In this document: piece after piece, positions 13,231 through 62,242 of the stretch
Layout: each line of letters opens with the position of its first letter
Numbering within the stretch: the first letter of the stretch is position 1
The notes under the pieces: model-generated
Told to the model about the DNA's origin: nothing
The model's database searches: none
Seen by the model: the letters and a program-made list of their open reading frames with translations, nothing else
Translations under genes and position numbers: made by a program
Source: a virus
DNA: 64,000 nt
IMG/VR virus record: IMGVR_UViG_3300045921_000291
Direction: 5' to 3' (one strand)

Positions 13231-13590
13231 ATGAGACTAATCGAATTCAGAAGCAAAATAAATGAAGGTATTGCAAAGCCAATCATTTACAAAGTAACGG
13301 ATAATAAAATAATAGAAATACTTTTAGATGTTGAGGGTAATTACATTAAACCAAATACTGAATTTATAAGTAAATCGTATCATATTGAACTGTCTCGTAT
13401 ATTCCCAAATGATATACTGATTTCAGTAAATGATTCAGAAGGTACACCTTACCTATCCTTTACATTAGACACTAATAAAAAAACATTCCACCACAACCGT
13501 TCGGGTAGTAGAACTATCCCATATAAAAAAGAAAAGGAGTTGGGTGATTTACTAATTAAAAAGTATGAGATAAGTGGTTTCTGGAGTTAA
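13231..13590 (+). CDS. hypothetical protein with capsid-targeting-like N-terminus
   Basis: 119 aa, begins MRLIEFRSKINEG. Confidence 0.7.
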   Translation: MRLIEFRSKINEGIAKPIIYKVTDNKIIEILLDVEGNYIKPNTEFISKSYHIELSRIFPNDILISVNDSEGTPYLSFTLDTNKKTFHHNRSGSRTIPYKKEKELGDLLIKKYEISGFWS

Positions 13591-14654
13591 ACCTCAATCA
13601 TCATTTCACGAATAAGCTCCAATACTTTATCTTTTAATTCGGAATCTTCTATATTCTGATTGATATATTCTGTTGACAACGCTTGTAAATCCCATGATGA
13701 GGGTAGTATCTCTATTTTACTTTCATCCACAAACAATGGGTTAAGCGCAGCCACATCATCTACATAAGAGACCGACTTAACTCTACCTGTTTCGGATATG
13801 CGTTGTACCTTTTTCTTCAAGTTGGGTGATGATTCCATTTCCGATATATTGACTTTCAAGTCTACCCAGTTTTTACCCTCAATTATCTCTTCAATTTTAG
13901 AAAAATCTGAGTTTTCGTTTACTTCAAGTACAACGTATTCTGGAGAAATCGTATTCTCTACAAATTGACAAGCCAATGTTTCCATGTCAATCACATGAAA
14001 GCCTTTTTTATTGCCTATATCCTTACGAGAAAGATGGTAAGGGGTGCCTGTGAATAATACGTTCTTTATCTTCTGTCTGATATGTATATGTCCCGATACA
14101 ACCAAATCAAATTTAGAATAGTCATCTATTCTCAATCCAAAATCACAAACATCTGATTTAGATGCACCCCATCTAGCACCATATAAATCTGTGTGTGCGA
14201 ACAAAAGGGATGAATTGTAATCTTCATTTGATATTATGTCTTTAAGCTCTTTGGTAGAGTGTACATATGGGCACATGAGCACTCTACGTCCACCCAATTT
14301 TATTTCATTGGGTGATGTGTGTAAATGTACATTTTTGAATTTTAGCGCATTTATAGAGATGTACTCTCTGGATTTTTCCTGATACATGTCATGGTTGCCA
14401 CATAAAACATGTACATCGCATATGCTTGACAATGCTTCGAATATACGTATACCCACACACATCGCTTTGATATTTATGGCAGTCCTATTGTCAAACACAT
14501 CCCCTAGTTGTACTATAACATCACCATCTTCGTAATTGGCTTCTATATAAGGTATGGCTTCCTTAAAAAAATAATTCTCAACTATGTGGACGTATTCGTC
14601 CAATTGCAAAGGGTGCACGCCTAAGTGTAGGTCTCCAAAGACAAATGCTTTCAT
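13587..14654 (-). CDS. gp47: recombination endonuclease nuclease subunit (T4 gp47 / SbcD / Mre11-like)
   Basis: Metallophosphoesterase motifs GDLH, GDVFD, GNHD, AHTD, GHIH. Confidence 0.93.
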   Translation of the reverse strand: MKAFVFGDLHLGVHPLQLDEYVHIVENYFFKEAIPYIEANYEDGDVIVQLGDVFDNRTAINIKAMCVGIRIFEALSSICDVHVLCGNHDMYQEKSREYISINALKFKNVHLHTSPNEIKLGGRRVLMCPYVHSTKELKDIISNEDYNSSLLFAHTDLYGARWGASKSDVCDFGLRIDDYSKFDLVVSGHIHIRQKIKNVLFTGTPYHLSRKDIGNKKGFHVIDMETLACQFVENTISPEYVVLEVNENSDFSKIEEIIEGKNWVDLKVNISEMESSPNLKKKVQRISETGRVKSVSYVDDVAALNPLFVDESKIEILPSSWDLQALSTEYINQNIEDSELKDKVLELIREMMIEV

Positions 14655-23808: not shown

Positions 23809-24147
23809 ATGAAAACTGATTTCAAAGTAACTCTATTCAAAGTGGCTTCATTCGTATTGACGTATGTCATATCATATGCGCTTACTATCTCGTTCGCGTT
23901 CGCTCTTCTTTTAATAATGGGGGGTACTCGACTAGGACAGGATATGATAGTTCACGTGGTACCTGACCACGTATATTATACCCGTTTTAGTACATACATG
24001 GAAACATCTTTCTATATCGCGAATGCCATTCATATGATTTATCTTTTGATTGGTATCCCCATGACTCTTCTAGGTAAAGACATGGATAACAGAATAAAGA
24101 AAGAGATAATCGAACAACAAAAATCAAAAGAAGAGGGCTCTAACTAA
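23809..24147 (+). CDS. two-TM membrane protein
   Basis: Two hydrophobic segments; stop overlaps the next start. Confidence 0.65.
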   Translation: MKTDFKVTLFKVASFVLTYVISYALTISFAFALLLIMGGTRLGQDMIVHVVPDHVYYTRFSTYMETSFYIANAIHMIYLLIGIPMTLLGKDMDNRIKKEIIEQQKSKEEGSN

Positions 24148-25439
24148 TGAGTAATCGAAAATACTACTACGAACCAGGGGACGGGGTACGTCCAGCTATA
24201 GCCTATATACAGATTAAGGGGATGCGTTCAGTCCATATGGGTATCGCTATAAAAGTTGGTGCCTATTATGAAAATATGCCCCATTTATTGGGTGCATCTC
24301 ATTACACCGAACATATGTGTTTTAATGGAACAGTCACGCGCTCAGGTGATGAGGTAAGAAACACACTGGTGAGATATGGTGGAAATATAAATGCGTATAC
24401 GACTACTGACCACACTACCTATCACTGCACTGTACCAAGTGAACAATTCGAAACTGCTGTTGATTTATTAACAGATTTGACTTTCTTCTCTGTTATGGAT
24501 AGTAAATCCATGGAGAAAGAACGAAATATTATCCAATCTGAAATACAACGCAGTCTTAATAATAAATGGGAAAGTTTATTCACTCACTTAAACTCTGTTG
24601 TATTTGAGGGCACTCCCATGAGTCACCATACGCTTGGGACAAAGGAGACGGTTGGTAATATAACTAGAGATGAGCTAAATGATTGGTATAAGCAAAATTA
24701 CCATTTAGGCAATGCTACCTATGTGGTAGTGGGTGATATTGATTATGATTTTCTAGTTGATACCATTTATGACTATGCTTTTGACGTACCGTTTGGCAAA
24801 AAGAATAGTGATATCATCTTACCTGAACCAAAATATCTAACCGATAAGATAAAGCGGGACGATGTATATGAAGATATGGTAAGTATTTGTACATTTGACA
24901 ACTTTGACTTCTTAGATGAAGAAGCATTATACCGAGACCAATTCAATAATTGGCTAGGTGGTTCTGGTTTTAGCAGTAAATTATTTAATGTAGTTAGAGA
25001 AAAAATGGGTTTGTGTTATTCCATAAACTCCAATTATACCAATTTCATAAAAGGCTCTAGTAGATTAGATATATGCTTTTCTACGCTTCCAGGTAATCAC
25101 GGTAAAGCGGTGGATGCTATAACCGAAATAATCAAACAACACAAAGATGGTGAGGGTATGACAAAGGATGAATTTAAAATCTTCCTAGACTACACCAAAT
25201 CAAATATAGCCATAGAGCATGACGACCCTATGAAATTATTTTCAAGGCTACTTATAATAACGCCATCTTACGATGAAGATTATATTCTTGACGTATCATA
25301 TGAAGAGAGAATCAAGAAATTAGATAATATGAAATATGATAACTATATGGATTGCACTAGTAATATCTTAGACCAATCTACAATGATTGTATTCGAGGGT
25401 AATGAAAGAGCCGAAAGTAGTGAAGACGAATCAAATTAA
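24147..25439 (+). CDS. M16 (insulinase/pitrilysin-like) zinc peptidase
   Basis: Inverted zincin HYTEH, NAYTTTDHTTY, ERNIIQSE, C-half LGG..SSKLF..VREKMGLCY. Confidence 0.9.
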   Translation: MSNRKYYYEPGDGVRPAIAYIQIKGMRSVHMGIAIKVGAYYENMPHLLGASHYTEHMCFNGTVTRSGDEVRNTLVRYGGNINAYTTTDHTTYHCTVPSEQFETAVDLLTDLTFFSVMDSKSMEKERNIIQSEIQRSLNNKWESLFTHLNSVVFEGTPMSHHTLGTKETVGNITRDELNDWYKQNYHLGNATYVVVGDIDYDFLVDTIYDYAFDVPFGKKNSDIILPEPKYLTDKIKRDDVYEDMVSICTFDNFDFLDEEALYRDQFNNWLGGSGFSSKLFNVVREKMGLCYSINSNYTNFIKGSSRLDICFSTLPGNHGKAVDAITEIIKQHKDGEGMTKDEFKIFLDYTKSNIAIEHDDPMKLFSRLLIITPSYDEDYILDVSYEERIKKLDNMKYDNYMDCTSNILDQSTMIVFEGNERAESSEDESN

Positions 25440-36968: not shown

Positions 36969-37000
36969 TTTGTATTTGTCGAAAAAAATACAGATATTTG
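36969..37000 (+). promoter_or_regulatory. Bacteroidota sigma70-type promoter (variant)
   Basis: TTTG (36969-36972), N20, GATATTTG (one mismatch). Confidence 0.55.
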
Positions 37001-37024: not shown

Positions 37025-37510
37025 ATGGAATTTCAAGTGCCCAACATTTTTGTAACAGAATACTCCTCTAAGAATGGTGCATCTTGCCCTTACAAAGTAA
37101 TTAGCGCTCATGGTGAAGAACTCCGTTACGAGACTGACCGAGGTATTGTTAAGACGGATGTCACTTATCAGGAATTCGTCATGTTGATTGAGCGTTTCTT
37201 CCCTAACCTCCAGTATGATACTTATGAATATTATACTCGATACGACCATTTCTCTGAAATTCGCGCTGGTTACATGGTAGGTGGTATTTTCGTACCTACC
37301 TATAAGTTCCAGTTCATGCAACTTGAGGACGAAAACCCAGATGCTCCTTTCCGTCGTTTTCATTTGAACGGTGACCTTATCGTTTATAAGTTGACCGACG
37401 CTGGTAAGACAGAAGAATTTCAAGATATGGTTGAACTTGAGAAATATTGGGATGACGAAAATAAGTGCATAGGGGTAAAACGCCCATCTTTTATGACTAA
37501 TCTTAACTAG
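37025..37510 (+). CDS. hypothetical protein (early)
   Basis: ATG 37025 in frame; CGT/GGT-biased codons like 3701..4108. Confidence 0.75.
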   Translation: MEFQVPNIFVTEYSSKNGASCPYKVISAHGEELRYETDRGIVKTDVTYQEFVMLIERFFPNLQYDTYEYYTRYDHFSEIRAGYMVGGIFVPTYKFQFMQLEDENPDAPFRRFHLNGDLIVYKLTDAGKTEEFQDMVELEKYWDDENKCIGVKRPSFMTNLN

Positions 37511-37586: not shown

Positions 37587-37702
37587 TATCATACCTAAAT
37601 AGAAAAAATTATGTAAATTGGTATCAAAGTAAATGAACCATATAAGTATTACTATCCATACAAGAAATCATAATATAATGCTAAAATAATAGATTTATTA
37701 TG
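37587..37702 (+). pseudogene. isolated C-cap remnant of an LRR-array gene
   Basis: Decayed ATCATACCT..ATAGAA...TATTACTATCCATACAA...AAAATAATAGATTTATTATG, matching the 3' ends of intact copies. Confidence 0.6.
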
Positions 37703-38168
37703 ATGCTCACCAATAAACAAAAGTCATTCCTTGAAAATGTAGTCATAGGAAAATGGTCAATAAACCAAAATACAGGTTTAGTTGATGTAGAAGGTAATGT
37801 ACTTATGTCAGATATGAGACTAACCGAAATACCCGTCAAATTTGGTAAATAAATGGCAATTTCGATTGCTCATATAACCGATTGAATAGTCTTGGAGGTG
37901 CACTCCAATCAGTCGGTGGGTATTTCAATTGCTGTAATAACAAATTAACTAACTTAAAATGAGCACCTCAATAAGTTTGGGGTTTATTTTATATAGATTT
38001 AAGTTATATTGATAATAAGTATTACCATGTCATCATACCCGAAATAGAAGAAATGTTGGGAATGGGTATAAAATTTCATTATCCATATATCGCATTTGTC
38101 GAAAATTATGCTTTACTTTGTTATATAAAGAAATTCACTATAATAATAAAATAATAGAGATACTATGA
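37700..38168 (+). pseudogene. LRR-array pseudogene
   Basis: MMLTNKQKSFLENVV N-cap, stop near 37849, frameshift, in-frame TGA/TAA in the repeats, disrupted C-cap. Confidence 0.8.
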
Positions 38169-39181
38169 AAATAACTAAAGAACAAAAGTCATTCCTTGAC
38201 AAAGTAGTCAATGGTATATGGTCAATCAATTCAGATACAAATCTGATTGATGTAGAAGGTAGTGTGGATATGTCTCGAATGAATTTGACTGAAATACCTG
38301 TTAAATTTGGGAAAGTAACTGGTAATTTCGATTGCCATGAAAATGAATTAACTAGTTTAGTAGGCGCGCCCCAATCAGTTAGAGGTGGTTTCTATTGCGA
38401 TAATAACCAATTGACTAGTCTGGTAGGAGCACCCCAATCAGTGGGTGGTGATTTCATTTGCCATGAAAACCAATTGACTAGTCTGGTAGGAGCACCTAAA
38501 TCAGTTGGAGGGGATTTCTATTGCAATAATAACCAATTAACTAGTTTAGTAGGCGCGCCCCAATCAGTTAGAGGTGGTTTCTATTGCGATAATAACCAAT
38601 TGACTAGTCTGAAAGGAGCACCCCAATCAGTTGGCGGTGATTTCTTTTGTTATAAAAACAAATTGACTGGTCTGGTAGGATCACCTCAATTAGTTGGGGG
38701 TAGTTTCAGATGCCATAAAAACCAATTGACTAGTCTGGTAGGAGCACCTCAATCGGTAGGTGGTAATTTATTTTGTTATAAAAACAAATTGACTAGTCTG
38801 GAAGGAGCACCTCAATCAGTTGGAGGGGATTTCATTTGCCATGAAAACCAATTGACTAGCTTAGAAGGAGCACCAAAATCTGTTGGGGGTGATTTTAGTT
38901 GCTATCTTAACAAATTAACTAGTCTGGTAGGTGCACCTCAATTAGTTGGGGGTAGTTTCTATTGCGATTGTAATCAATTGACTAGTCTGGAAGGTGCACC
39001 TAAATCAGTTGGGGGTTTATTTTATATAGATTTAAGTTATATTGATAAAAAGTATTACCATGTCATTATACCCGAAATAGAAGAACTGATTTCCAGAGGT
39101 ATCAATTTATACAAACCATATGTGTATTATCACCCATATAAAGAAGCATACTATAATAATAAAATAATAGAGATAATATGA
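38165..39181 (+). CDS. 21-residue leucine-rich-repeat protein, 10 internal modules
   Basis: N-cap MKITKEQKSFLDKVV.G.WSIN, modules LTSLxGAPxSVGGxFxCxxNQ (63-bp period), C-cap YYHVIIPEIEE..YYHPYKEAYYNNKIIEII. Confidence 0.9.
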   Translation: MKITKEQKSFLDKVVNGIWSINSDTNLIDVEGSVDMSRMNLTEIPVKFGKVTGNFDCHENELTSLVGAPQSVRGGFYCDNNQLTSLVGAPQSVGGDFICHENQLTSLVGAPKSVGGDFYCNNNQLTSLVGAPQSVRGGFYCDNNQLTSLKGAPQSVGGDFFCYKNKLTGLVGSPQLVGGSFRCHKNQLTSLVGAPQSVGGNLFCYKNKLTSLEGAPQSVGGDFICHENQLTSLEGAPKSVGGDFSCYLNKLTSLVGAPQLVGGSFYCDCNQLTSLEGAPKSVGGLFYIDLSYIDKKYYHVIIPEIEELISRGINLYKPYVYYHPYKEAYYNNKIIEII

Positions 39182-39879
39182 AAATAACTAAAGAACAAAA
39201 GTCATTCCTCGACGAGGTAGTCACTGGAAAATGGTCAATCAATCCAAATACTGGTTTAGTTGATGTGGATGGTAATGTATTTATCTCAGATATGAAGTTG
39301 ACAGAAATACCTATAAAATTCGGTGAAGTGACTGGTTATTTCAATTGCTCGATTAACCAATTGGCTAGTCTGGAAGGAGCACCTCAATCAGTTGGCGGTG
39401 ATTTCTTTTGTCAAAGTAACCAATTGACTAGCCTTGAAGGTGCACCTAAATCAGTTGGTGGTGATTTCCACTGCTTTAATAACAAATTAACTAGCCTTGA
39501 AGGTGCACCAAAATCTGTTGGAGGTATTTTTAATTGCCCATATAACCAATTGACTAGTCTGGTAGGTGCACCTAAATCAGTTGTGAGCAATTTCTATTGT
39601 TTTGGTAACCAATTGACTAGTCTGGTAGGGGCACCTCAATCAGTTGGAAGTGATTTCTGTTGTCGCTCAAACAAACTAACTAGCCTAGAAGGAGCACCCC
39701 AATCAATTGGTGGTATGCTTCATATAGACTTAGGTTATATTTCTAAATATTATTATCATGTAATTATACCTGAAATAGAAGAAATGATTAAAAATGGTAT
39801 TAAATTATACAAACCTGATGAGTATTATTACCCCTACAAAGAAATTCACTATAAAAATAAGTTGATTGAATTGTTATGA
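39178..39879 (+). CDS. LRR protein, 5 modules
   Basis: Same caps; 233 aa = 128 + 5x21; ATGA overlap with neighbours. Confidence 0.9.
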   Translation: MKITKEQKSFLDEVVTGKWSINPNTGLVDVDGNVFISDMKLTEIPIKFGEVTGYFNCSINQLASLEGAPQSVGGDFFCQSNQLTSLEGAPKSVGGDFHCFNNKLTSLEGAPKSVGGIFNCPYNQLTSLVGAPKSVVSNFYCFGNQLTSLVGAPQSVGSDFCCRSNKLTSLEGAPQSIGGMLHIDLGYISKYYYHVIIPEIEEMIKNGIKLYKPDEYYYPYKEIHYKNKLIELL

Positions 39880-40320
39880 AATTAACTAATGAACAAAACT
39901 CATTCCTTGACAAAGTGGTCTCTGGAAAATGGTCAATCAATTCAGATACAAATCTGATTGATGTAGAAGGTAGTGTGGATATGTCGAATTTAACTAATAT
40001 ACCTGTCAAGTTTGGTAATGTAACTGACTATTTCAATTTCTCATATAAAGAATTGACTAGTTTGATAGGCGCATCTAAATCAATAGGTCGTGTTTTCAAA
40101 TGCACTAATAATCCATTGACTATATTAGAAGGTGCATCCCAATCAATCGGTGATTATTATATAATTATTGACTTGGCTGAAATTGATAAAAAGTATCAAC
40201 CTATCATTATTGATTAAAATAGAGAAAATGATAGAAAGGGGTATCTTAATATTTAAATCCGATATTACTTACTACCCGTACAAAGAAGCATATCAAAAAT
40301 ATAAGATAAAGGGTTAATTA
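39876..40320 (+). pseudogene. truncated LRR-array copy, 1 module
   Basis: ORF stops at 40217 inside the C-cap; decayed cap sequence continues to about 40320. Confidence 0.75.
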
Positions 40321-52620: not shown

Positions 52621-55404
52621 TTATTTGGAAACTGGGTCTGACTTCCTGAAATTATCCGCTATTCTAGCAATCTTTCTTATTTCATTTGCCATGCCTTCCA
52701 TTTTTTCGTTCATTTTACCTATCTCCTCTTTCATAACATCAGAAATGGCATTAGACAAATCTTCCAACTTAAAAGATTCCTCCTCTTTCTCTGCCACTGC
52801 TGGACCACCAGCTCCACCCGAACCACCCGCGACACCAGCACCAGATGGCATAAAAGAATTTACTGTACTACTAGCATTCGTTGTCTTAATGTTTACTTTA
52901 GATAAGACTTCACTAAGCGCATCTACATTTGACTCCATACTATCCTCATCCAAAACAGAAATAACAACCAATGCTTCTGCTAGTCTATTCAAAGGTTTTA
53001 TGAATGAGGTAGATATCAAAGACTCTTTCAAACGTTTTATGGCTTCCGATAATTTATCAATACCACTCGCGACTTTACTCAAACCTTCACCTACACCTCC
53101 ACCTCCACCTCCAAATCCAAATAAACCAGTTCGAGTATTACCAAGAAACTCATCAAATCCTCTTCTAAGTAATAAAAGTCTTTTATTTAATGCTTCAAAA
53201 TCTTCAACTGCTGATTTTTTAATTATTTCATCTCTAATAATAGGAATCGCATCAGCTAAGCCTCTAAGAGATTTCAATATACCTTCCATTATATTAGTAG
53301 CACCTTTAATATCACTTTCACCTGGTAAGTTGGATACAAACTCTTTTATAGCAGAACCTATCTCTCCTACTTTAGTTTTGAAATTTTTTAATTCATTTTC
53401 TGAAAACTTATTAACTGTTTCTATAGAAGGTAGAACTTTTTTAAGTACATCCATAGATTTCAATATGGAATCCATGATTACAGCGGTAGAACCCATTGCA
53501 CTTACACCGGGTAAGTTATCAGCAAAAGCATATAAACCTGCCGCTATTTTAGTCATGTTTGAGACATAATTATCACTTATTTTCTGTTTATCAACAAGAT
53601 TTGCAGTCTCAACACCTTTCTTAACACTATCAAATAATCCACCTCCACCCAGAAGGTCAGATAGACTCTTTAATATTTCCGCTCCAGCTAGTAGAAGACC
53701 GAATACCAACAAACCAATACCTACAAGTATAATACTTATCATAAATGTTGCAGCATTACCAATACTAGAGAACACTGGCGTTGCGAATGCTTCATTTACA
53801 GCGTTTGACATAAGTGTGATAACTCTTGCAAAACTTTCTGCTACGTTTACCATCTTTTTGGAAACTAAGTCTAATAAGTAAATAGCCACCACTATTGCAA
53901 CTACACCAAGTATAAATGCTATAACACCTTGTATCATCATAGCAGGTGGGAATAACATACCAAGACCACCTATTGCTGTAGCAAATGCAGCAACTGCACC
54001 CATAGCTAGAATGAATTCTAAAGGTATTACTGGGAAATTAGTAACACCACTTAAAATCTCGGATGAAATTCTAATTAAAAATACGACACCCAATAAAGCT
54101 AGACCACCTTTCAATACATCTGCGGGGGATACGCTCTTCAACATATTTATAGGTATTGCCATTGCTATACCAGCCAATCCCAAAACAATAGCAAGTCCAG
54201 CCAATGAAAGGCCAACATCCATATTAAACCAACTCAAATTTATAGCACCCCCTTCATCTACCCCTTTTTCGAGCAATTTAGAAGCTCCGTAGATAATAGC
54301 AAGCATTGCAATTATAGCCAATCCAGCGATAATTACAGTCTGTGCTTCTACACCTTTCATTATTTTTAAAGGTATAGCCATTGCAAGCATAATAACACCC
54401 AAAGCCAAACCAAGTCCAGTTACGGCGAGTAATTTTTCAAGGGTTATACCTTTGGTGTCTATTTCCATAATAGCGAGACTACCAGCAACTAGTATAACTC
54501 CTATAAAACCTACAATAGCAGCCACTTTAGCAAAGTCTTTCCATTGAAACTCCATAGCAACTTTCATCAATTTCGCGATGCCTATAGAAACTGCTGATAA
54601 AGCCAAAGCCACACCTATGGCACTCAATAATTGCATAGGAGACAATACCGCAACTAATTTCAAAGACCATGAAGCGACTGCGATTGCTAGTGCTATTGAA
54701 GGTGCTATTATTGGTAAAATAGGCATTACCAATAGTGCTGCTATGCCAGCTTTTTTGAAGTTCTTTATGAACATTCCTATACCTATCATAGCTAATCCCA
54801 AAGTTATAGCAACACCCACAGCACTTAGTAATTGTAATGGAGAAACCACTGCCGTCAATTTCATTATCCAAGATGCGAGCATCAATGAGGTCGCGGCAAT
54901 TGGAACTATTAACCCAAACATTAACATGTGTTTCCAACTAGGCAACTTAGCTTTACCTATCTTCTCAAATGCAATAGCTAATAAAGGAAGTGCGATAGCC
55001 ATAGCTATAACAGTACCAAAGTTAACACTTCCTATGAGCTTGAAAGCTAAACCGATGGCAAGAACTGCACCAGCAATCATTATGATATTCTGTATACCTG
55101 ATTTTATGTCTTCTTTCTTACCCGATAATATCCCACCAGATTTCTTATCCTTCTTCATATCCTTGATGTCGGACATCATTTTTTCCTGATTGGCTATTAT
55201 CTTCTTAGTATCTGATGCGATTGACTTTATTTCTAAAGCCATGCTCTTAATGTCTTCTGCTATACCAGATGAATCTGAAAACTTCTTCACTGCACCTTTG
55301 TCAGCGGACGCTTTAGACTGCTCTTTAAGAGCATTAACGACCTCCATCATCGCCTCCGCGACATTGGACATTGCACTTATAAATTTTTTATTAGTTTCAT
55401 TCAT
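52621..55404 (-). CDS. tape-measure-like protein
   Basis: 927 aa; A/G/L/I-rich periodic hydrophobic helical core with charged coiled-coil ends; GATATATA box upstream. Confidence 0.6.
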   Translation of the reverse strand: MNETNKKFISAMSNVAEAMMEVVNALKEQSKASADKGAVKKFSDSSGIAEDIKSMALEIKSIASDTKKIIANQEKMMSDIKDMKKDKKSGGILSGKKEDIKSGIQNIIMIAGAVLAIGLAFKLIGSVNFGTVIAMAIALPLLAIAFEKIGKAKLPSWKHMLMFGLIVPIAATSLMLASWIMKLTAVVSPLQLLSAVGVAITLGLAMIGIGMFIKNFKKAGIAALLVMPILPIIAPSIALAIAVASWSLKLVAVLSPMQLLSAIGVALALSAVSIGIAKLMKVAMEFQWKDFAKVAAIVGFIGVILVAGSLAIMEIDTKGITLEKLLAVTGLGLALGVIMLAMAIPLKIMKGVEAQTVIIAGLAIIAMLAIIYGASKLLEKGVDEGGAINLSWFNMDVGLSLAGLAIVLGLAGIAMAIPINMLKSVSPADVLKGGLALLGVVFLIRISSEILSGVTNFPVIPLEFILAMGAVAAFATAIGGLGMLFPPAMMIQGVIAFILGVVAIVVAIYLLDLVSKKMVNVAESFARVITLMSNAVNEAFATPVFSSIGNAATFMISIILVGIGLLVFGLLLAGAEILKSLSDLLGGGGLFDSVKKGVETANLVDKQKISDNYVSNMTKIAAGLYAFADNLPGVSAMGSTAVIMDSILKSMDVLKKVLPSIETVNKFSENELKNFKTKVGEIGSAIKEFVSNLPGESDIKGATNIMEGILKSLRGLADAIPIIRDEIIKKSAVEDFEALNKRLLLLRRGFDEFLGNTRTGLFGFGGGGGGVGEGLSKVASGIDKLSEAIKRLKESLISTSFIKPLNRLAEALVVISVLDEDSMESNVDALSEVLSKVNIKTTNASSTVNSFMPSGAGVAGGSGGAGGPAVAEKEEESFKLEDLSNAISDVMKEEIGKMNEKMEGMANEIRKIARIADNFRKSDPVSK

Positions 55405-55458
55405 CTGAATGATTTATATATCATTTATGCTTAATCTTATGGATTTTTTAGCAAGCTA

Positions 55459-55489
55459 TTGCATTTAACAGAAAAAAATGTTATGTTTG
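55459..55489 (+). promoter_or_regulatory. Bacteroidota sigma70-type promoter upstream of LRR array 2
   Basis: TTG (55459-55461), N20, TATGTTTG (55482-55489). Confidence 0.8.
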
Positions 55490-55609
55490 CTGAATGAAAC
55501 CTCTCATATCCGATATTGACGTGTCATCCGTCTTAATTGAAAACGATACCCTAATCAAAAAATAAAAGTCAAATATAAACCCATATAATTCAACTAAAAT
55601 CTAATAAAA

Positions 55610-56071
55610 ATGAAAAACCTTTTAAACCTTTTCATCAACTTTTTCAAGTCAGTGTCATATGATATGGGATTGTCGGATTTTTTAGAGCTTAAAACTAAAG
55701 ATAGTATACTCCTATTAGCGCGTAATTTGAAGATGGATAAAGAAAAAAAACTTGAATTATCTTTTGAAATTTTAATGTCGAATATAGATTTAGATAAATC
55801 TAATGGTGTGATACATGTAAGTCATACTTCGACAATTAGAGAAAGTGAATTGAACTTTAATTTATGGGACACTCATAAAATAGTTAGACTCAATAACAGT
55901 GTCGTAAGTAAAACCAAACATGAATTTGAAAGCAAATTGGTTGAACTATCTACCTATAATTTCCTACGTGATATCATAAAGGACTTTGTTCATTCAGATG
56001 AAAAAACTAGCAAGATTAAATTCAGAATGATTGAAAAATACATTGATAATAATATAAATCTAAAAGTGTAA
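55610..56071 (+). CDS. hypothetical protein
   Basis: 153-aa ORF leading array 2. Confidence 0.7.
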   Translation: MKNLLNLFINFFKSVSYDMGLSDFLELKTKDSILLLARNLKMDKEKKLELSFEILMSNIDLDKSNGVIHVSHTSTIRESELNFNLWDTHKIVRLNNSVVSKTKHEFESKLVELSTYNFLRDIIKDFVHSDEKTSKIKFRMIEKYIDNNINLKV

Positions 56072-56089
56072 TTTGATTTAATTTCAATT

Positions 56090-56725
56090 ATGATGAAATC
56101 AGAACAAAAGTCATTCCTCGACAAAGTAGTCAGAGGTGAATGGTCAATCAATCCAGATACTGGTTTAGTTGATGTAGATGGTAGTGTGTATATAAATGGA
56201 CGCAATTTGACAAAAATACCTGTCAATTTTGGTAAAGTGTCTGGGTGTTTTAATTGTGACCATAACAAATTAAAAAGTCTCAAAGGTGCACCTAAATCAG
56301 TTGGTGGTAGTTTTTATTGTTGTGATAACGAATTAACTAGTCTGGAAGGAGCACCGATAACGGTTAGTCGTAGTTTTTATTGTCATATTAACCAATTGAC
56401 CAGTCTGAAAGGTGCACCTAAATCGATTGGAAGTAATTTCGATTGTTCTAGTAATCAATTGAACAGCTTAAAAGGTGCACCTCAATCAATAGGTGGTGAT
56501 TTTATTTGCTCTAATAACCAATTGACTAGCTTAAAAGGTGCACCTCAATCAATAGGTGGTACTTTTGATATAAACTTAGGTGAAATTTATGAGGAGTATT
56601 ACCATGTCATTATACCTGAAATAGAAGAACTAATATCTAAAGGTATTAAAATATACAACCCTGAGGAATACTATTACCCATACAAAGAAGCATATTATAA
56701 TGATAAAATAATTGAATTGTTATGA
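56090..56725 (+). CDS. LRR protein, 4 modules
   Basis: Family caps and 21-aa modules. Confidence 0.9.
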   Translation: MMKSEQKSFLDKVVRGEWSINPDTGLVDVDGSVYINGRNLTKIPVNFGKVSGCFNCDHNKLKSLKGAPKSVGGSFYCCDNELTSLEGAPITVSRSFYCHINQLTSLKGAPKSIGSNFDCSSNQLNSLKGAPQSIGGDFICSNNQLTSLKGAPQSIGGTFDINLGEIYEEYYHVIIPEIEELISKGIKIYNPEEYYYPYKEAYYNDKIIELL

Positions 56726-57423
56726 TACTAACCAAAAAAGAAAGCTCGTTCCTTGACAAAGTAGTCAAAGGTAAATGGTCAATCAACCCAAATACTGATT
56801 TAGTTGATGTAGATGGTATCGTGGATATGTCACATATGAAGTTGATTGAAATACCAGTCAAATTTGGTAATGTGTCTGGTTATTTCTATTGCCCATTTAA
56901 CCAATTTACTAGCTTGAAAGGGGCACCCCAATCAGTGGGTGGTGATTTCTCTTGCAATGATAATGAATTAACCAGTTTAGCTGGAGCACCCCAATCAGTA
57001 GGTGGTTATTTCAATATTTCATATAACCAATTGACTAGTCTAGTAGGAGCGCCCCAATCAATTGGAGGTGGTTTCTATTGCTCATATAACCAATTGACTA
57101 GTCTAGTAGGAGCGCCCCAATCAGTGGGTGGTGGTTTTAATTGCTCTAATAACCAATTAACTAGTTTAGCTGGAGCGCCCCAATCAGTGAGTGGTGATTT
57201 TATTTGCTCTAATAAACAATTAACTAGTTTAGAAGGTGCACCTGAAGTAATAGGTGGCACTTTTGATATAAACTTAGGTGAAATTTATGAGGAGTATTAC
57301 CATGTCATTATACCTGAAATAGAAGAACTAATATCTAAAGGTATTAAAATATACAACCCTGGGGAATACTATTACCCATACAAAGAAGCATATTATAATG
57401 ATAAAATAATTGAATTGTTATGA
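56722..57423 (+). CDS. LRR protein, 5 modules
   Basis: Family caps; C-cap DNA nearly identical to the previous gene. Confidence 0.9.
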   Translation: MILTKKESSFLDKVVKGKWSINPNTDLVDVDGIVDMSHMKLIEIPVKFGNVSGYFYCPFNQFTSLKGAPQSVGGDFSCNDNELTSLAGAPQSVGGYFNISYNQLTSLVGAPQSIGGGFYCSYNQLTSLVGAPQSVGGGFNCSNNQLTSLAGAPQSVSGDFICSNKQLTSLEGAPEVIGGTFDINLGEIYEEYYHVIIPEIEELISKGIKIYNPGEYYYPYKEAYYNDKIIELL

Positions 57424-57932
57424 TACTAACCAAAGAAAAAAAGTCATTCCTAGATAGCGTAGTTAAAGGAAATTGGTCAGTAAACCCAGATACTGGTTTG
57501 GTTGACGTGGATGGTAGTGTATATATGGGTGGATGTAATTTGAAAAAAATACCAGTCAAATTTGGTAATGTGTCTGGGTGTTTTGATTGTGACTATAACG
57601 AATTAAAAAGTCTAAAAAGTTCACCTCAATCAGTTGGTAAACATTTCTTTTGTTCATATAACCAACTGATTAGTCTGGAAGGCGCACCTCAATCGGTTGG
57701 GGGTTATTTTAATTGTCGTCATAATAACTTAACTAGTTTAGTAGGAGCACCCCAATCAGTTGGGGATTATTTCTTTATAGAATTAAATTATATTGATAAA
57801 GCACACTATTATATCATCATACCTGAAATAGAAGAAATGATGGAAAGAGATGTCAAATTATACAGACCAAATGAGTATTATTACCCGTACAAAGAAGCTT
57901 ACTATAATGATAAACTAGTAGATTTATTATGA
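57420..57932 (+). CDS. LRR protein, 2 modules
   Basis: 170 aa = 128 + 2x21. Confidence 0.88.
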   Translation: MILTKEKKSFLDSVVKGNWSVNPDTGLVDVDGSVYMGGCNLKKIPVKFGNVSGCFDCDYNELKSLKSSPQSVGKHFFCSYNQLISLEGAPQSVGGYFNCRHNNLTSLVGAPQSVGDYFFIELNYIDKAHYYIIIPEIEEMMERDVKLYRPNEYYYPYKEAYYNDKLVDLL

Positions 57933-59008
57933 AAATAACTAAAAAACAAAAGGCTTTTCTCGACAAAGTAGTCAAAGGTAAATGGTCAATCAATCCAGAT
58001 ACTGGTTTTGTTGATGTGGATGGTTGTATTTACATGTCAAATATGGGTCTAAATGAAATACCCTTAAAATTTGGTGAATTAACGGGTGATTTCGATTGCA
58101 GTGATAACAAATTAATTAGTTTAGAGGGGGCACCTAAATTAGTTAACGGGTATTTCTATTGCTCCTATAATCAATAGACCAGTTTGCTAGGTGCACCTCA
58201 ATCTGTTGGGGGGGATTTCGTTTGCGCCGATAATCAATTGACCAGTTTGCTAGGTGCACCTCAATCCGTTGGGGGTGGTTTTTATTGTAATATTAACCAA
58301 TTAACTAGTTTAGAAGGTGCTCCAAAATTAGTTGGGACTGATTTTTATTGCTCATATAACCAATTGACTAGTTTAGAGGGAGCACCTAAATCAGTCGAGG
58401 GTGGTTTCAGTTGCTTAAATAATAAATTGACCACTTTGCTAGGTGCACCTCAATCGGTTGGAAAGGAGTTCTATTGCTCATATAACCAGTTGACTAATCT
58501 GGTAGGTTCACCTCAATCTGTAGGGGGTAATTTTTATTGTTATACTAACCAATTAACTAGTTTAGAGGGTGCTCCAAAATCCGTTGGGGGTCATTTCGAT
58601 TGCTCAGATAACCAGTTGACTACTCTGGTAGGAGTGCCCCAATCAGTTGGTGGACATTTTGATTGCAGAAATAATAACTTAACTAGCTTAAAAGGTGCAA
58701 TTCAAACTGTTTTTAGTTATTTCGATTGCTCATATAACAAATTGACTAATTTTCTAAATGGACCAAAATCGGTTGGCGATAATTTCATTTGTCACGATAA
58801 CCAATTGGTTAGTCTTGAAGGATTACCTGAATCAATTGGTGGTTTTTTTTATATAAAATTAGGTGAAATTGACAAAAAGTATTACCATGTCATCATACCC
58901 AAAATAGAAGAATTATCATATAAAGGTATTAAACTATACAACCAAGAAGAATACTATTACCCATACAAAGAAGCTCACTATAGAAATAAGTTGATTGAAT
59001 TGTTATGA
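57929..59008 (+). pseudogene. LRR gene, 11 modules, interrupted by one TAG (58175-58177)
   Basis: 57929..58177 and 58184..59008 are in frame; TAG replaces the conserved Leu TTG. Confidence 0.88.
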
Positions 59009-59643
59009 AAATTACATATAAAAAAAATGAATTCCTAGATAAAGTAGTCAAAGGAAATTGGTCAATCAATCCAGATACTGGTTTAGTAGATGTAGACGGA
59101 GATGTGAGTATCTCTTTTATGAATTTGACTGAAATACCATTCAAATTTGGCAAAGTTACTGGTAATTTCTTTTGCTCACTTAATAGATTAACTAGTTTAG
59201 AAGGCGCACCTCAATATGTCGGGAAATCTTTTACTTGCTATTACAATAAACTGACTAATTTAGAAGGCGCACCAAAATCAGTGAATTTTAATTTTGATTG
59301 CTATAATAACCAATTGACCAGTCTGGAAGGTGGACCTAAATTTGTTGGGGGGGATTTTAAGTGCATCGGCAATAATTTAATAAGTCTAAATGGCGCACCT
59401 CAATCAGTGGGAAATAATTTCTTTTGTTCACTTAATCCGTTTACTACATTAGAAGGTGCACCTCAATCAGTAGGTGGGGGTTTTTCAATAGATTTAGGCT
59501 ATATCGATAAAAAACATCACCACATCATCATCATTCAAATAGAAGAAATGATAGAAAGGGGTATAAAGATAGACGAACCATTTATTTTTTACTACCCGTA
59601 CAAAGAGGATTACTACAACGCTAAAATAATAGATATATTATGA
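59005..59643 (+). CDS. LRR protein, 4 modules
   Basis: 212 aa = 128 + 4x21. Confidence 0.9.
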   Translation: MKITYKKNEFLDKVVKGNWSINPDTGLVDVDGDVSISFMNLTEIPFKFGKVTGNFFCSLNRLTSLEGAPQYVGKSFTCYYNKLTNLEGAPKSVNFNFDCYNNQLTSLEGGPKFVGGDFKCIGNNLISLNGAPQSVGNNFFCSLNPFTTLEGAPQSVGGGFSIDLGYIDKKHHHIIIIQIEEMIERGIKIDEPFIFYYPYKEDYYNAKIIDIL

Positions 59644-59910
59644 AAATAAGAAAAGAACAAAAGTCATTCCTGAAAAAGTAGTAGAAGAAGGTACATGGTC
59701 AATAAATCCAGATACTGGTTTTATTGATGTAGAAGGTAGTGTGGATATGTCAGATATGAATCTGAATGAAATACTAGTCAACTTTGGTGAATTAACTGAT
59801 GATTTCTATTACGACAATAAAAATGACTAATTTAGAAGACACATCCCAATCAGTAGGTTGTTATTTCCATTTCAGTGATAAAAATGACTAATATAATAGG
59901 GGCCAATAAG
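59640..59910 (+). pseudogene. LRR-array pseudogene
   Basis: MKIRKEQKSFL then frameshift and TAG; recognisable N-cap and decayed repeats; no C-cap. Confidence 0.8.
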
Positions 59911-60085
59911 TTGATTTTGTTTTTATTTTATTGATAAAAAATAAGCAGTCTAACGAATGCACTTAAAATCAAATATTTTTTATTTTAATTTTTACAATCC
60001 ATATATAGCATTTGTCTAAATTTTTCATTTAATTTGCAATGCAAAAAGAATACCGAAATTCTAAAAAAAACATAATTAAATTTTT

Positions 60086-60877
60086 ATGATACTCACCGAT
60101 GAACAGAAGTCATTCTTAAACAAAGTAGTCAGAGGTAAATGGTCAATCAACCCAAATACTTCTTTAATTGATGTAAAAGGTAGCGTAGATATGTCAAATA
60201 TGAATTTGACTGAAATACCTATCAAATTTGGCAACGTAAAAGATAATTTCTTTTGTTATAAAAACCAATTAACTACTCTGGTGGGCTCACCACAATTTAT
60301 TTGGGGTGATTTTGATTGTTCACATAACCAATTGACTAATTTAGAAGGCGCACCTCAATCAGTTGGGGGGGTTTTCTATTGCTATAGTAACAAATTAACT
60401 AGTCTAACAGGAGCACCTAAATCGGTTTGGGATAGTTTCGATTGCTTTAATAACCAATTGACTAGTTTAGAAGGCGCACCTCAATCAGTTGGGGGCAGTT
60501 TCATATGCACTCGTAATAATTTAACTAGTCTGGTAGGTGCACCTCAATCGGTTGGGCACAATTTCGATTGCAGTTGTAATAACTTAACTAGTTTAGTTGG
60601 AGCACCTCAATCGGTTGGGTATAATTTTTCTTGCTCCGATAATGAATTAACTAATTTATTAGGGGCACCTCAATCAGTTGGGGGTTATTTCAATTGCTCC
60701 AATAACAACTTGACTAGTATATTGGGAGTGCCTAAATCGATAGGTCGTTTTTTTTCAATAAACTTAGGTTGTATTGATAAATTGTATCACCGTATAATTG
60801 TACCTGAAATAGAAGAACTAATAAAAAGAGGCATTAAAATACACAATATCGAAGTTTACTATTATCCATATAAATAA
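60086..60877 (+). CDS. LRR protein, 7 modules, slightly C-truncated
   Basis: GAA to TAA after YPYK removes roughly the last dozen residues; decayed cap continues to 60913. Confidence 0.8.
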   Translation: MILTDEQKSFLNKVVRGKWSINPNTSLIDVKGSVDMSNMNLTEIPIKFGNVKDNFFCYKNQLTTLVGSPQFIWGDFDCSHNQLTNLEGAPQSVGGVFYCYSNKLTSLTGAPKSVWDSFDCFNNQLTSLEGAPQSVGGSFICTRNNLTSLVGAPQSVGHNFDCSCNNLTSLVGAPQSVGYNFSCSDNELTNLLGAPQSVGGYFNCSNNNLTSILGVPKSIGRFFSINLGCIDKLYHRIIVPEIEELIKRGIKIHNIEVYYYPYK

Positions 60878-60910
60878 AAATACCATTACCGATAAACTAA
60901 TTGAATTGCC

Positions 60911-61340
60911 ATGATACTCACCAATAAACAGAAACCATTCCTTGATAAAGTAGTCAAGAGTTAAATGGTCAATCAATTCAGATAAAAATCTTATTGATGT
61001 AGAAAGTGATGTAGATATGGCAAGGCGTAATCTGACTAAAATACCAGTAAGCTTTGGTAAGGTAACTGGTGGCTTCCACTGTTAGGGTAACAAATTGACC
61101 AATCTATTAGGGGCACCCCCAATCAGTTGGTGGAAATTTAATTTGCTATAATAACCAATTAACTAGTTTAGTAGTTATACCTCAATCACTTGGGGTGTTT
61201 TAATATAGATTTAGGTGATATAAATCAGGAGTACTGCCATGCCATCATACCTGAAATAGAAGAAATTATGAAAAGAGGTATCAAATTATTCAATCCAGAT
61301 GAGTATTACTACCCACACAAAGAAGCATACTATGTTATGA
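60911..61340 (+). pseudogene. LRR-array pseudogene
   Basis: MILTNKQKPFLDKVV N-cap, several frameshifts and stops, about one module, recognisable C-cap. Confidence 0.8.
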
Positions 61341-62214
61341 TTGTGAATCAGTATAACTAGTAAATCATCAGAAGATGCCTATTTCATTTAAAACGTATCA
61401 TTAAAATTATTTAGTTTGAATCTTGTTCAAATCCGATTATATTTCACAATCATTTATACCTTTATCATTTTTTAATGTAATTACATCCAATATAATACAA
61501 TCATAAAGCATATAGAAAAACTGCTATATAAATAGAATATAATTATAAATTTCTCATAGCCACAAAAATTAGTATGCCTAACTAAATTTAAAAAATATGA
61601 ATAATTAAAAAAAAGTGAAATAGTATTCGATTTATTATACTAGACCGATACCCAAAGTATCACCTTTCCATAACTAATAACCACTTTATGTCGGACAAGA
61701 TAAAACTGTAATTTCGTAATCAGCTAAAAGCTCTCTAAATAAGTCTGCATCCATATCAGTTAAATCCAACCCGTTTAACACCCAACCCAGTATATCCAGT
61801 AGATATAGTTCATCTCACCTACTGATTCATTTAATTCACTTATGTTGTTTTTTTGAATTTTTTTATAACTCACACCTGATAGTGTAACGTCTTAATCCTT
61901 TTCATGTCCGACTTATTAACTTTTAAGCCTTGTTTTTCTGTTATTGTAAATAGGCAATTTAATTCTATGTATTTTATATTTATGTGATTGCAAACGTAAA
62001 ATATTTTAATAAAGAATATGTTATTATTAACAACTTTATTATCATTTCATTTAATCATCACATATTATTTTTCATTGGTCGGTCAGTTAAATAATGATAT
62101 TAAGCAAGTGTTCCAATACATCACCAGTGCTCAATTGATGAAGCGTCACTTGATAGTTACTAACTTATAATTTATGGCTAAAGCTATGAATTTTTTCGAT
62201 TTTTATTTTTATAG

Positions 62215-62242
62215 AAAAAGGGGGGCACGTGCCCCCTTTTTT
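62215..62242. terminator. intrinsic terminator downstream of dut
   Basis: A5-GGGGGG-CACGTG-CCCCC-T6 near-perfect palindrome. Confidence 0.8.

What the first reader, a model, noticed from the sequence alone, without database searches (positions are those of the whole stretch)
56090..61340. Phage-encoded VLR-like repertoire: tandem array of modular LRR genes with a hypervariable binding face (array 2; see also array 1)
Seen: eight head-to-tail paralogs, mostly chained by ATGA stop/start overlaps. Each has a fixed N-cap (M.IT.EQKSFLDKVV.G.WSINPDTGLVDVDG.V....LTEIP.KFG.V.G.F.C), n copies of a 21-aa module LTSLxGAPxSVGGxFxCxxN(Q/K), and a fixed C-cap (YYHVIIPEIEE..GIK.Y.P.EYYYPYKEAYYN.KIIELL). Lengths follow about 128+21n, with n = 4, 5, 2, 11, 4 and 7 here and 10, 5 and 1 in array 1. 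The LTSL.GAP.SVG scaffold and the F/C/N core are conserved, while the positions in G-x-F-x-C-x-x-N vary freely and are rich in Y, D, S, N, H, F and G. Established: in LRR solenoids the x positions of LxxLxLxxN form the concave ligand-binding face, which is where lamprey variable lymphocyte receptors diversify. Inference: a combinatorial family of cytoplasmic binders (no signal peptides, downstream of a host-sigma promoter), plausibly neutralising varied host defence proteins. Similar repeat proteins occur as hypothetical annotations in other large phages, so the novel part is the system-level reading.
Basis: partly seen in the sequence, partly recalled or inferred. Interest (0 to 1): 0.92.

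Follow-up and report, generated by a model that had tools for sequence, protein, structure and literature searches.

The report
Phage arrays of hypervariable LRR genes
A phage from a hot-spring microbial mat carries two rows of related small leucine-rich-repeat genes whose scaffold is tightly conserved while four positions per repeat vary freely; this looks like an inherited set of cytoplasmic binding proteins from a very large, unstudied phage family, but what they bind is unknown.

Summary
Array 2 (56090-61360, + strand) has eight head-to-tail copies of one gene type: fixed N-cap, n copies of a 21-residue LRR module (n = 4, 5, 2, 11, 4, 7) and a fixed C-cap. Seven junctions across both arrays are ATGA overlaps. 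Three corrections apply. The n=11 gene carries an in-frame TAG, the n=7 gene is cut 12 codons early by a nonsense codon, and two copies are decayed.

Module columns 14, 16, 18 and 19 (the x positions of x-F-x-C-x-x-N) reach 2.7-3.3 bits; scaffold columns sit at 0.15. In close module pairs these columns evolve at about the neutral rate (omega about 1.1), against 0.16 for the scaffold. They are rich in Y, D, S, N and H. AlphaFold gives a confident LRR solenoid. The nearest solved relatives are internalin J and the SspH/IpaH LRR domains.

No signal peptide, reverse transcriptase or somatic assembly was found, so "VLR-like" holds only as an analogy. The same LRR type forms arrays in other phage lineages, and this scan has noted similar arrays on other DNA. 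An anti-defence role is plausible but untested; no RNA data were available.

The parts
55459..55489 (+). Promoter-like element (TTG, 20 nt, ATGTTTG; Bacteroidota -33/-7 type) upstream of the array-2 transcription unit
   Evidence: Regex scan: 12 matches in the window against 7.7 expected, so weak on its own. A 31-nt element of the same layout lies at 36970-37000, ahead of array 1.
55610..56071 (+). 153-aa ORF of unknown family, same direction as array 2 and directly upstream of it
   Evidence: Searches found no Pfam, PHROG or NCBIfam match. It is unrelated to the ORF ahead of array 1.
56090..56725 (+). Intact LRR gene, 211 aa, 4 internal modules
56722..57423 (+). Intact LRR gene, 233 aa, 5 internal modules. 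This is the protein that was modelled.
   Evidence: AF2 pLDDT 95.9, pTM 0.89.
57420..57932 (+). Intact LRR gene, 170 aa, 2 internal modules
57929..59008 (+). LRR gene with 11 modules, interrupted by an in-frame TAG at 58175-58177. It is probably a recent pseudogene or a split gene.
   Evidence: TAG serves as an ordinary stop elsewhere in the window, and nothing points to recoding.
59005..59643 (+). Intact LRR gene, 212 aa, 4 internal modules
59640..59900 (+). Decayed LRR copy: an N-cap and about one module, with frameshifts. It starts with an ATGA overlap.
   Evidence: blastn to intact copies gives 72-79% identity.
60086..60877 (+). LRR gene, 263 aa, 7 modules. A nonsense codon truncates the C-cap 12 codons early.
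60911..61360 (+). Decayed LRR copy spread over three frames, with internal stops. Its C-cap is still recognisable (61190-61360).
62215..62242 (.). Strong bidirectional terminator-like hairpin between array 2 and the convergent dUTPase gene. It is the likely end of the transcription unit.
   Evidence: 12-bp stem, 6 G-C pairs, T runs on both sides
36970..37000 (+). Promoter-like element with the same layout as 55459-55489, ahead of ORF 37025-37510 and array 1
37587..38160 (+). Array 1, decayed part: a C-cap remnant, then a pseudogene with a frameshift and in-frame stops
38165..39181 (+). Array 1 intact LRR gene, 338 aa, 10 modules. It contains an exact 77-bp module duplication (38346-38422 = 38535-38611).
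39178..39879 (+). Array 1 intact LRR gene, 233 aa, 5 modules
39876..40317 (+). Array 1 frameshifted, degenerate short copy

Best explanation
The two arrays are an inherited multigene family of small, soluble, cytoplasmic LRR binding proteins that evolves by birth and death.

Shown:
- Each protein is a capped solenoid of 21-residue repeats of the internalin-J type, with a Cys ladder.
- The hydrophobic and Asn core, the N-cap (helix plus hairpin) and the helical C-cap are under purifying selection.
- Four positions per repeat vary freely. By the LRR register these are exposed on the strand side (positions 3, 5, 7 and 8 of LxxLxLxxN). They are filled mostly with Tyr, Asp, Ser, Asn and His, a make-up typical of binding sites.
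- New specificities arise by point changes, mostly in the first base of NAT-type codons. They also arise by gain, loss and copying of modules and by occasional gene conversion. Copies are lost to nonsense and frameshift mutations.

Inferred:
- Each array is probably transcribed as one operon, given the ATGA-coupled genes and a shared promoter-like element of a type used by Bacteroidota hosts. That would place expression before or apart from the late structural genes.
- The proteins bind variable host proteins, or proteins of competing phages, during infection. That would make them a host-takeover or counter-defence repertoire.
- The target class is the weakest step.
For: - Anatomy and entropy. 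The same columns are hypervariable across the family.
- Fold: AF2 pLDDT 95.9. VIA Z is 15.2 to the SspH1 and IpaH1.4 LRR domains and about 14 to VLRs and internalins. The best sequence match to a solved structure is internalin J, 3bz5, E = 3e-13, aligned in register.
- Selection, in nearest-neighbour module pairs at 85% identity or more: hypervariable dN 0.174 against dS 0.147; scaffold dN 0.026 against dS 0.164; the two classes differ at p = 3e-16.
- Composition at the variable sites is not neutral: Y and H are enriched 5-fold and D 2.8-fold, while K, E, L, T, V and A are depleted 3- to 10-fold.
- No hydrophobic segment: maximum Kyte-Doolittle value 1.14. The N-terminal helix belongs to the folded cap, with pLDDT 95-98.
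- Turnover: five decayed copies, a TAG nonsense codon, a 77-bp exact module duplication and a 176-bp conversion tract.
- Variation between samples: the flank is identical, but the only contig over 56246-56883 in another sample differs by 7%. Related contigs hold arrays with different gene orders and no one-to-one orthologues.
- Recurrence in other phage lineages: arrays of 4-7 genes in L002, L010/L012 and the huge phage LR756501.
- Neighbours are accessory or nucleotide-metabolism genes rather than virion genes: CCA-adding enzyme and dUTPase here; gp32 in L004; DnaB and RNA ligase in the Vibrio phage; NAMPT plus NMNAT-NUDIX in L002.
Against: - No target, transcript or protein has been observed. 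No RNA run was listed.
- Omega at the variable sites is not significantly above 1 (p = 0.42), so relaxed constraint on four exposed positions cannot be excluded by rate alone.
- The promoter motif is not enriched in the window as a whole (12 found against 7.7 expected), and the host is unidentified.
- Array 2 lies next to a 927-aa multi-membrane-span protein and not far from virion genes, so a virion role is not excluded.
- Five of 13 copies are broken and one more is truncated, so part of the family is dispensable.
Placing the variable columns on the concave face rests on the LRR register, not on a measured surface.
Confidence: 0.55

Rival explanations
1. The proteins are virion-associated host-recognition or decoration proteins. 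The conserved caps dock them on the capsid, tail or fibres, and the variable LRR face binds different host surface structures, so the array widens or hedges host range.
For: LRR domains serve in adhesion, as in internalins. Published phage work places LRR or beta-helix domains on putative host-recognition fibres (Goslar preprint) and an LRR-like, highly variable gene in a tail module (PMC10945359). The Tyr/Asp/Asn/Ser-rich face would suit glycans. Virion genes lie within about 10 kb of both arrays.
Against: The proteins are small (170-360 aa) and show no recognisable anchoring or trimerisation domain. The genes are not inside a structural operon, and they lack the late-type TATATA box that lies close to the start of the neighbouring late gene (late-box class taken from an unchecked note seen). 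In other phages the family sits beside replication and accessory genes. A buried Cys ladder and the absence of any export signal fit the cytoplasm.
Confidence: 0.2
2. The proteins are substrate adaptors. The invariant N- and C-caps bind one common partner enzyme of the phage or host, such as a protease or a modifying enzyme. The variable LRR face recruits different targets to it, as the LRR domains of IpaH/SspH or F-box-LRR proteins do.
For: The caps are under purifying selection (pN/pS about 0.35-0.45). The closest structures are LRR substrate-binding domains of NEL effectors. In the wider family the same N-cap and LRR are fused to varied C-terminal domains, including PcfJ-like and dUTPase domains.
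Against: No candidate partner is conserved next to the arrays. The two upstream ORFs are unrelated to each other. The caps look like ordinary solenoid caps in the model.
Confidence: 0.12
3. Diversification is programmed: either a retroelement (DGR-like) or VLR-like cassette copying actively rewrites the variable codons or modules within the phage population.
For: 88% of hypervariable codons end in T or C and 60% have A in the second position, which resembles a DGR footprint. Broken copies could serve as donor cassettes. Module-sized exact copies exist. Short-sided joints between modules appear in assembled contigs from other runs.
Against: No reverse transcriptase was found in the 64-kb window, and there is no template/variable repeat pair. 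In module pairs at 90% identity or more, over half the differences (28 of 43) lie outside the four hypervariable columns, 16 of them synonymous. K, E and Q codons do occur at the variable sites. The paralogs are old (cap pS 0.4-0.6). The joints have sides of 21-41 nt and are unreliable in repeats. The remaining 20 kb of the contig was not seen.
Confidence: 0.04
4. The family has no current function: it is a selfishly expanding repeat-gene family that is decaying neutrally.
For: Five of 13 copies are broken by frameshifts or stops and one more is truncated. Omega is about 1 at the variable sites.
Against: Purifying selection on the scaffold and caps is strong (omega 0.11-0.16, p = 7e-15). Residue composition at the variable sites is non-neutral. 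The family is kept in thousands of phage contigs and several lineages.
Confidence: 0.05

Closest known systems
Listeria internalin J (InlJ, PDB 3bz5), LRR region
   Same: Best sequence match among solved structures (E = 3.3e-13). Both have a 21-residue repeat period, a Cys in place of the third hydrophobic residue of LxxLxL (a Cys ladder), and an Asn ladder.
   Different: InlJ is a secreted, cell-wall-anchored virulence protein with an internalin N-cap and an inter-repeat domain (from my own knowledge of the family). The phage proteins have no signal peptide, carry their own N- and C-caps, and are 170-360 aa long.
LRR substrate-binding domains of NEL effectors (SspH1, SspH2, IpaH) and YopM
   Same: Top structural matches (Z 14-15) and sequence matches (E 1e-13 to 1e-5). 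These are short bacterial-type LRRs that bind target proteins on the concave face inside a cytoplasm.
   Different: The phage proteins have no NEL E3 ligase domain and no type III secretion context. Their period is 21 residues rather than 20, and they occur as tandem paralog arrays.
Tandem LRR gene locus of Flavobacterium psychrophilum (Altae-Tran et al. 2020, PMC10392669)
   Same: Up to 19 head-to-tail LRR genes, each with 2-14 repeats and hypervariable positions on one face, with broken gene fragments between intact genes and strain-to-strain differences. The evolutionary anatomy is the same.
   Different: Those are bacterial cell-surface proteins with a signal peptide and a type IX secretion C-terminal signal, and their repeats are about 22 residues long. 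The genes here are phage-encoded, lack any export signal and belong to a different LRR class.
Lamprey and hagfish variable lymphocyte receptors
   Same: An LRR solenoid with a variable number of modules, diversity concentrated on the concave face, and Tyr/Asp/Asn-rich variable residues. Structural Z is about 14.
   Different: VLRs are assembled somatically from flanking cassettes into one incomplete gene, and they have disulfide-bonded LRRNT/LRRCT caps and 24-residue modules (established knowledge). Here the genes are complete and inherited, the caps are unrelated, and Pfam LRRNT scores only 11-18 bits against a 25.8 cut-off.
LRR multigene families of giant viruses and 'Leucine-rich repeat' proteins of uncultured Caudovirales (BFVD/UniProt)
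   Same: Virus-encoded LRR paralog families. BFVD hits include a dUTPase-LRR fusion and phage entries at 33% identity.
   Different: None has an assigned function. Within the literature I could search, the tandem arrangement with hypervariable columns has not been described for phages.

Membership tests
Leucine-rich repeat superfamily | Tandem 20-30-residue units carrying the LxxLxLxxN/C core | tested here: met
   48 in-register 21-residue modules. F15, C17, N20, L1 and L4 are conserved in 46-47 of 48.
Leucine-rich repeat superfamily | Curved solenoid fold with one short strand per repeat | tested here: met
   AF2 pLDDT 95.9, with a strand at module columns 15-16 in every repeat. Z is 13-15 to many solved LRR domains.
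Leucine-rich repeat superfamily | Pfam LRR model at or above its gathering score | tested here: not met
   LRR_4 scores 14-24 bits against a cut-off of 27, so standard annotation misses the family.
Internalin family (InlJ type) | 21-residue LRR with a Cys ladder | tested here: met
   Period 21 and C17 present in 47 of 48 modules. Aligned in register to 3bz5. NCBIfam internalin_J scores 48 bits, far below its cut-off of 1700.
Internalin family (InlJ type) | Signal peptide, internalin N-cap, inter-repeat domain and cell-wall anchor | tested here: not met
   No hydrophobic N-terminus. The proteins end in a 45-residue helical cap.
Variable lymphocyte receptors | LRRNT/LRRCT caps and 24-residue variable modules | tested here: not met
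   LRRNT is below threshold, the modules are 21 residues long, and the caps are a helix plus hairpin and a helical bundle.
Variable lymphocyte receptors | Somatic assembly of one incomplete gene from donor cassettes | not testable with these tools
   The genome holds complete genes. Only assembled short contigs were available and their joints are unreliable. Nothing positive was seen.
NEL (IpaH/SspH) effectors | C-terminal novel E3 ligase domain | tested here: not met
   The proteins end about 45 residues after the last LRR. There is no Pfam hit beyond the LRR region.
Diversity-generating retroelement targets | A reverse transcriptase and a template repeat near the variable region, with differences confined to template adenines | tested here: not met
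   No RT in the window. Differences between close modules are spread over scaffold and synonymous sites. The 20 kb of the contig outside the window was not seen.
F. psychrophilum-type tandem LRR locus (as an evolutionary kind) | Head-to-tail LRR paralogs with variable repeat number, hypervariable positions and interspersed gene fragments | tested here: met
   description in PMC10392669
F. psychrophilum-type tandem LRR locus (as an evolutionary kind) | Secretion signal and type IX C-terminal domain (surface display) | tested here: not met
   the C-cap is a short helical cap

The most novel reading that the evidence does not exclude
Phages, especially large ones, carry inherited repertoires of diversified cytoplasmic LRR binders. 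Each paralog would neutralise, or redirect, a different variable host immune protein or a protein of a competing phage. That would be a modular binder-based counter-defence strategy built on the same scaffold that animals and plants use for immune recognition.
Probability: 0.25. Interest if true: 0.85.

Novelty: new variant of a known kind. Interest (0 to 1): 0.6.

Why it matters
LRR multigene families with a diversified binding face are a hallmark of host-parasite conflict in animals, plants and some bacteria. This work shows that the same architecture recurs as tandem arrays in several phage lineages. The family has thousands of members, every one annotated as hypothetical and all below Pfam thresholds.

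If the proteins bind host defence or takeover targets, the family would be a large new source of phage counter-defence factors and of natural, modular protein binders. One homologue sits in a cultured Vibrio phage, so the question can be tested at the bench.

Tried and rejected
- Near-identical DNA in the phage collection: none.
- Whole-genome search: no genome is held for this window.
- A C-cap query against metagenome contigs found nothing. Against viral contigs it found only one related contig.
- TAG recoding as an explanation for the in-frame stop: rejected. TAG ends four ordinary ORFs, and no other gene needs read-through.
- DGR-type diversification: no RT was found and the differences are not confined to the variable codons.
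- General homogenisation of the caps: rejected. Only one gene pair shares a near-identical C-cap and junction (176 bp, one mismatch); the other caps are as diverged as the rest of the genes.
- Homology between the two ORFs that precede the arrays: none.
- Host identification through the CCA-adding enzyme's homologues: no organism names were returned.
- tRNAs and Rfam families: none.
- RNA runs: none was listed.
- Per-column dN/dS over all module pairs was uninformative, because synonymous sites are saturated. It was replaced by nearest-neighbour pairs.
- Model coordinates could not be read in the Python box, so no direct surface mapping was done.
- No complex prediction was run, because no partner is proposed.


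Full report
**What is in the sequence**

The window is phage DNA. It carries a T4-type large terminase, an SbcC-like nuclease subunit, a helicase and virion proteins. No cellular genome is held for it. The source contig is 83,950 bp long.

The terminase's nearest relatives are the 460-735-kb "uncultured phage" genomes LR745206 and LR756500-LR756504, at 29-38% identity. Several of these also encode the LRR family studied here. Public runs that contain the array come from hot-spring and microbial-mat metagenomes.

ORF listing and three-frame translation confirm two arrays on the + strand. Array 2 holds eight copies:

| Coordinates | Length | Modules | State |
|---|---|---|---|
| 56090-56725 | 211 aa | n=4 | intact |
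| 56722-57423 | 233 aa | n=5 | intact |
| 57420-57932 | 170 aa | n=2 | intact |
| 57929-59008 | 359 codons | n=11 | in-frame TAG at 58175-58177 replaces the first Leu of module 2 |
| 59005-59643 | 212 aa | n=4 | intact |
| about 59640-59900 | - | - | frameshifted remnant |
| 60086-60877 | 263 aa | n=7 | a nonsense codon removes the last 12 residues of the C-cap, whose decayed codons still follow in frame |
| about 60911-61360 | - | - | remnant spread over three frames |

Array 1 (37587-40317) holds a C-cap remnant, a pseudogene, intact 338-aa (n=10) and 233-aa (n=5) genes, and a frameshifted short copy. Seven junctions across the two arrays are ATGA overlaps. Lengths follow 128+21n. TAG ends four other ORFs and nothing suggests recoding, so the in-frame TAG is a plain nonsense mutation.

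**Variable and constant columns**

In the 48 internal modules, L1, L4, P8, F15, C17 and N20 are nearly invariant at 0.15 bits. Columns 14, 16, 18 and 19 carry 2.7-3.3 bits and 9-14 residue types. Column 5 carries 2.2 bits. The same four columns are the variable ones (3.0-3.4 bits) in 713 modules from 117 metagenomic homologues, so this is a property of the whole family.

Over all module pairs the synonymous sites are saturated. I therefore used nearest-neighbour pairs among 135 unique modules from the window and its close relatives L001 and L004-L008. For pairs at 85% identity or more:

| Column class | dN | dS | Omega |
|---|---|---|---|
| Hypervariable (14, 16, 18, 19) | 0.174 | 0.147 (all columns) | about 1.1-1.2 |
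| Scaffold | 0.026 | 0.164 | 0.16 |

The two classes differ at p = 3e-16. The hypervariable rate is not significantly above the synonymous rate (p = 0.42). The rate alone therefore shows release from constraint, not proven positive selection.

Residue composition argues against simple neutrality. Tyr and His are enriched 5-fold, Asp 2.8-fold, and Asn and Ser nearly 2-fold. Lys, Glu, Leu, Thr, Val and Ala are depleted 3- to 10-fold, even though the genome is AT-rich and codes Lys and Glu abundantly elsewhere. The hypervariable codons are mostly of the NAT type: A is the second base in 60% and T the third base in 83%. Most changes between close modules fall in the first codon base.

**Fold**

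AlphaFold2, run on a 21-sequence alignment, gives pLDDT 95.9 and pTM 0.89 for the 233-aa protein. The N-cap is a helix (residues 5-14) plus a hairpin. Each repeat has a short strand at module columns 15-16. The C-cap is helical.

Foldseek E-values against the PDB are weak (2e-3 or worse), so this is a divergent LRR class. VIA-align still gives Z = 15.2 to the SspH1 and IpaH1.4 LRR domains and about 14 to internalins, YopM and VLRs.

By sequence, the best solved relative is Listeria internalin J (3bz5, E = 3.3e-13), followed by SspH2, SspH1, YopM and IpaH. The alignment is in register: F15, C17 and N20 correspond to L4, C6 and N9 of the LRR core. The hypervariable columns are therefore positions 3, 5, 7 and 8, which in solved LRR proteins line the concave face (established knowledge). 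I could not read the model's coordinates, so this mapping is by register and was not measured.

Pfam LRR_4 stays below threshold, and the PHROG matches have unknown function. No protein has a hydrophobic segment; the maximum Kyte-Doolittle value over 19 residues is 1.14. The N-terminus is part of the folded cap, which argues against a signal or targeting peptide.

**Evolutionary dynamics**

The paralogs are old. Mean pS between caps is 0.42-0.56 and pN is about 0.19. Only one pair, the 211-aa and 233-aa genes, shares a near-identical 176-bp stretch covering the C-cap and junction (one mismatch). One gene contains an exact 77-bp module copy three modules away. Occasional conversion and module duplication are thus shown; general homogenisation of the caps is not.

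Logan contigs from four runs were laid on 55400-61500. The upstream flank is identical in all four runs. In run X10, however, the only contig that covers 56246-56883 differs at 46 of 638 positions. Pieces from run X9 differ by 2-3%. Many joints between modules were reported, but their sides are only 21-41 nt long and cannot be trusted in repeats.

Related contigs from the same kind of sample hold arrays with different gene sizes and orders. Their genes are 43-74% identical to the best window paralog. The arrays are not identical across populations.

**Distribution**

The nearest ESM Atlas clusters are almost all viral. A search with the C-cap alone shows that only about 15 representative clusters share this C-cap, whereas the LRR unit itself is widespread. 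The N-cap motif is shared with proteins that carry other C-terminal domains.

Tandem arrays of the same LRR type occur in an IMG/VR 96-kb contig (five plus two genes), a JGI contig (six genes) and the huge phage LR756501 (four genes). A single copy sits in the cultured Vibrio phage VB_VaC_SRILMA. A few cellular MAGs also carry homologues.

Neighbouring genes are accessory or nucleotide-metabolism genes:
- In this window: CCA-adding enzyme and dUTPase.
- In L004: gp32.
- In the Vibrio phage: DnaB helicase and RNA ligase.
- In L002: NAMPT, an NMNAT-NUDIX enzyme and a PcfJ-like protein.

Fusions to dUTPase and to PcfJ-like domains also exist.

**Transcription signals**

Both arrays follow a co-directional unknown ORF. 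Each of those ORFs is preceded by a 31-nt element of the same layout, TTG-N20-AT(G/A)TTTG, at 36970-37000 and 55459-55489. The element resembles the Bacteroidota -33/-7 promoter. Such matches are not enriched in the window overall (12 against 7.7 expected), so this is a hint only.

A strong bidirectional terminator lies at 62215-62242. No RNA run was listed, so transcription is untested.

**Interpretation**

The best reading is an inherited, birth-and-death family of soluble cytoplasmic LRR binders with a diversified concave face. The target class, host or competitor proteins, is inferred from the lack of export signals, the gene neighbourhoods and the conflict-type evolution. It has not been shown.

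Four rivals remain: virion-borne adhesins, adaptors for a common partner, programmed diversification, and functionless expansion. They are weighed in the Rival explanations section.

The VLR comparison holds for the scaffold and for the location of the diversity. It does not hold for the mechanism of diversification or for the caps.

**Prior knowledge**

The closest published parallel is the tandem LRR locus of Flavobacterium psychrophilum. It shares the variable repeat number, the hypervariable face and the broken fragments between genes, but its proteins are secreted and surface-anchored (PMC10392669). The Tyr/Asp/His/Asn bias that the same paper reports at Dictyostelium LRR variable sites matches what is seen here.

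I found no paper that describes phage LRR arrays. A 2021 survey of LRRs in dsDNA viruses (Matsushima et al., cited in PMC10945359) is not held and could not be checked.

Earlier notes of this scan report the same 21-residue LRR type in another phage, in a Campbellbacteria array and in PcfJ fusions. The theme has therefore been met before on other DNA.

Noticed in passing
window 58175-58177: An in-frame TAG replaces the first Leu codon of module 2 in the 11-module gene. TAG is an ordinary stop elsewhere in the window, so this looks like a recent nonsense mutation that leaves an 82-aa N-terminal fragment.
   Followed up: yes
window 36970-37000 and 55459-55489: Two 31-nt elements share one layout (TTG, an A-rich spacer containing GAAAAAAAT, then AT(A/G)TTTG). 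Each precedes the operon that holds one LRR array. They may be a shared early promoter of the Bacteroidota -33/-7 type.
   Followed up: partly
window 56478-60683 (for example 57750-57765 and 60353-60368): The DNA coding for P-Q-S-V-G-G in many modules forms a 5-6-bp hairpin (CCYCAATCNGTTGGGG) followed by a T-rich run. The scan found 14 terminator-like sites against 3 expected. These may be a by-product of coding, or they may promote slippage and recombination between modules.
   Followed up: no
window 61360-62215: About 850 bp between the last LRR remnant and the terminator has no ORF longer than 50 aa and no blastn similarity to the arrays.
   Followed up: partly
window 62215-62242: A strong bidirectional intrinsic-terminator-like hairpin (12-bp stem flanked by A and T runs) lies between array 2 and the convergent dUTPase gene.
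   Followed up: no
window 52621-55404 (- strand): A 927-aa protein with many predicted membrane-spanning stretches and Gly-rich tracts matches no Pfam, PHROG or NCBIfam family. It is divergent from array 2 and has a TATATA box a few bases from its start.
   Followed up: partly
L002 748-2067, 9465-10448 and 12704-14545: In an unrelated 96-kb viral contig the LRR arrays flank a NAMPT gene and an NMNAT-NUDIX gene (an NAD salvage pair). A 613-aa PcfJ-like protein lies directly upstream of two LRR genes.
   Followed up: partly
window 24147-25439, 13587-14654 and 310-2037: The phage encodes an M16 (insulinase-type) peptidase and an SbcCD-like pair (a calcineurin-like phosphoesterase and an SbcC-like ATPase).
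   Followed up: no
window 61198 (runs X9, X10): Contigs from two other samples carry an extra C inside the decayed last copy. The pseudogene's frame state therefore differs between populations.
   Followed up: no
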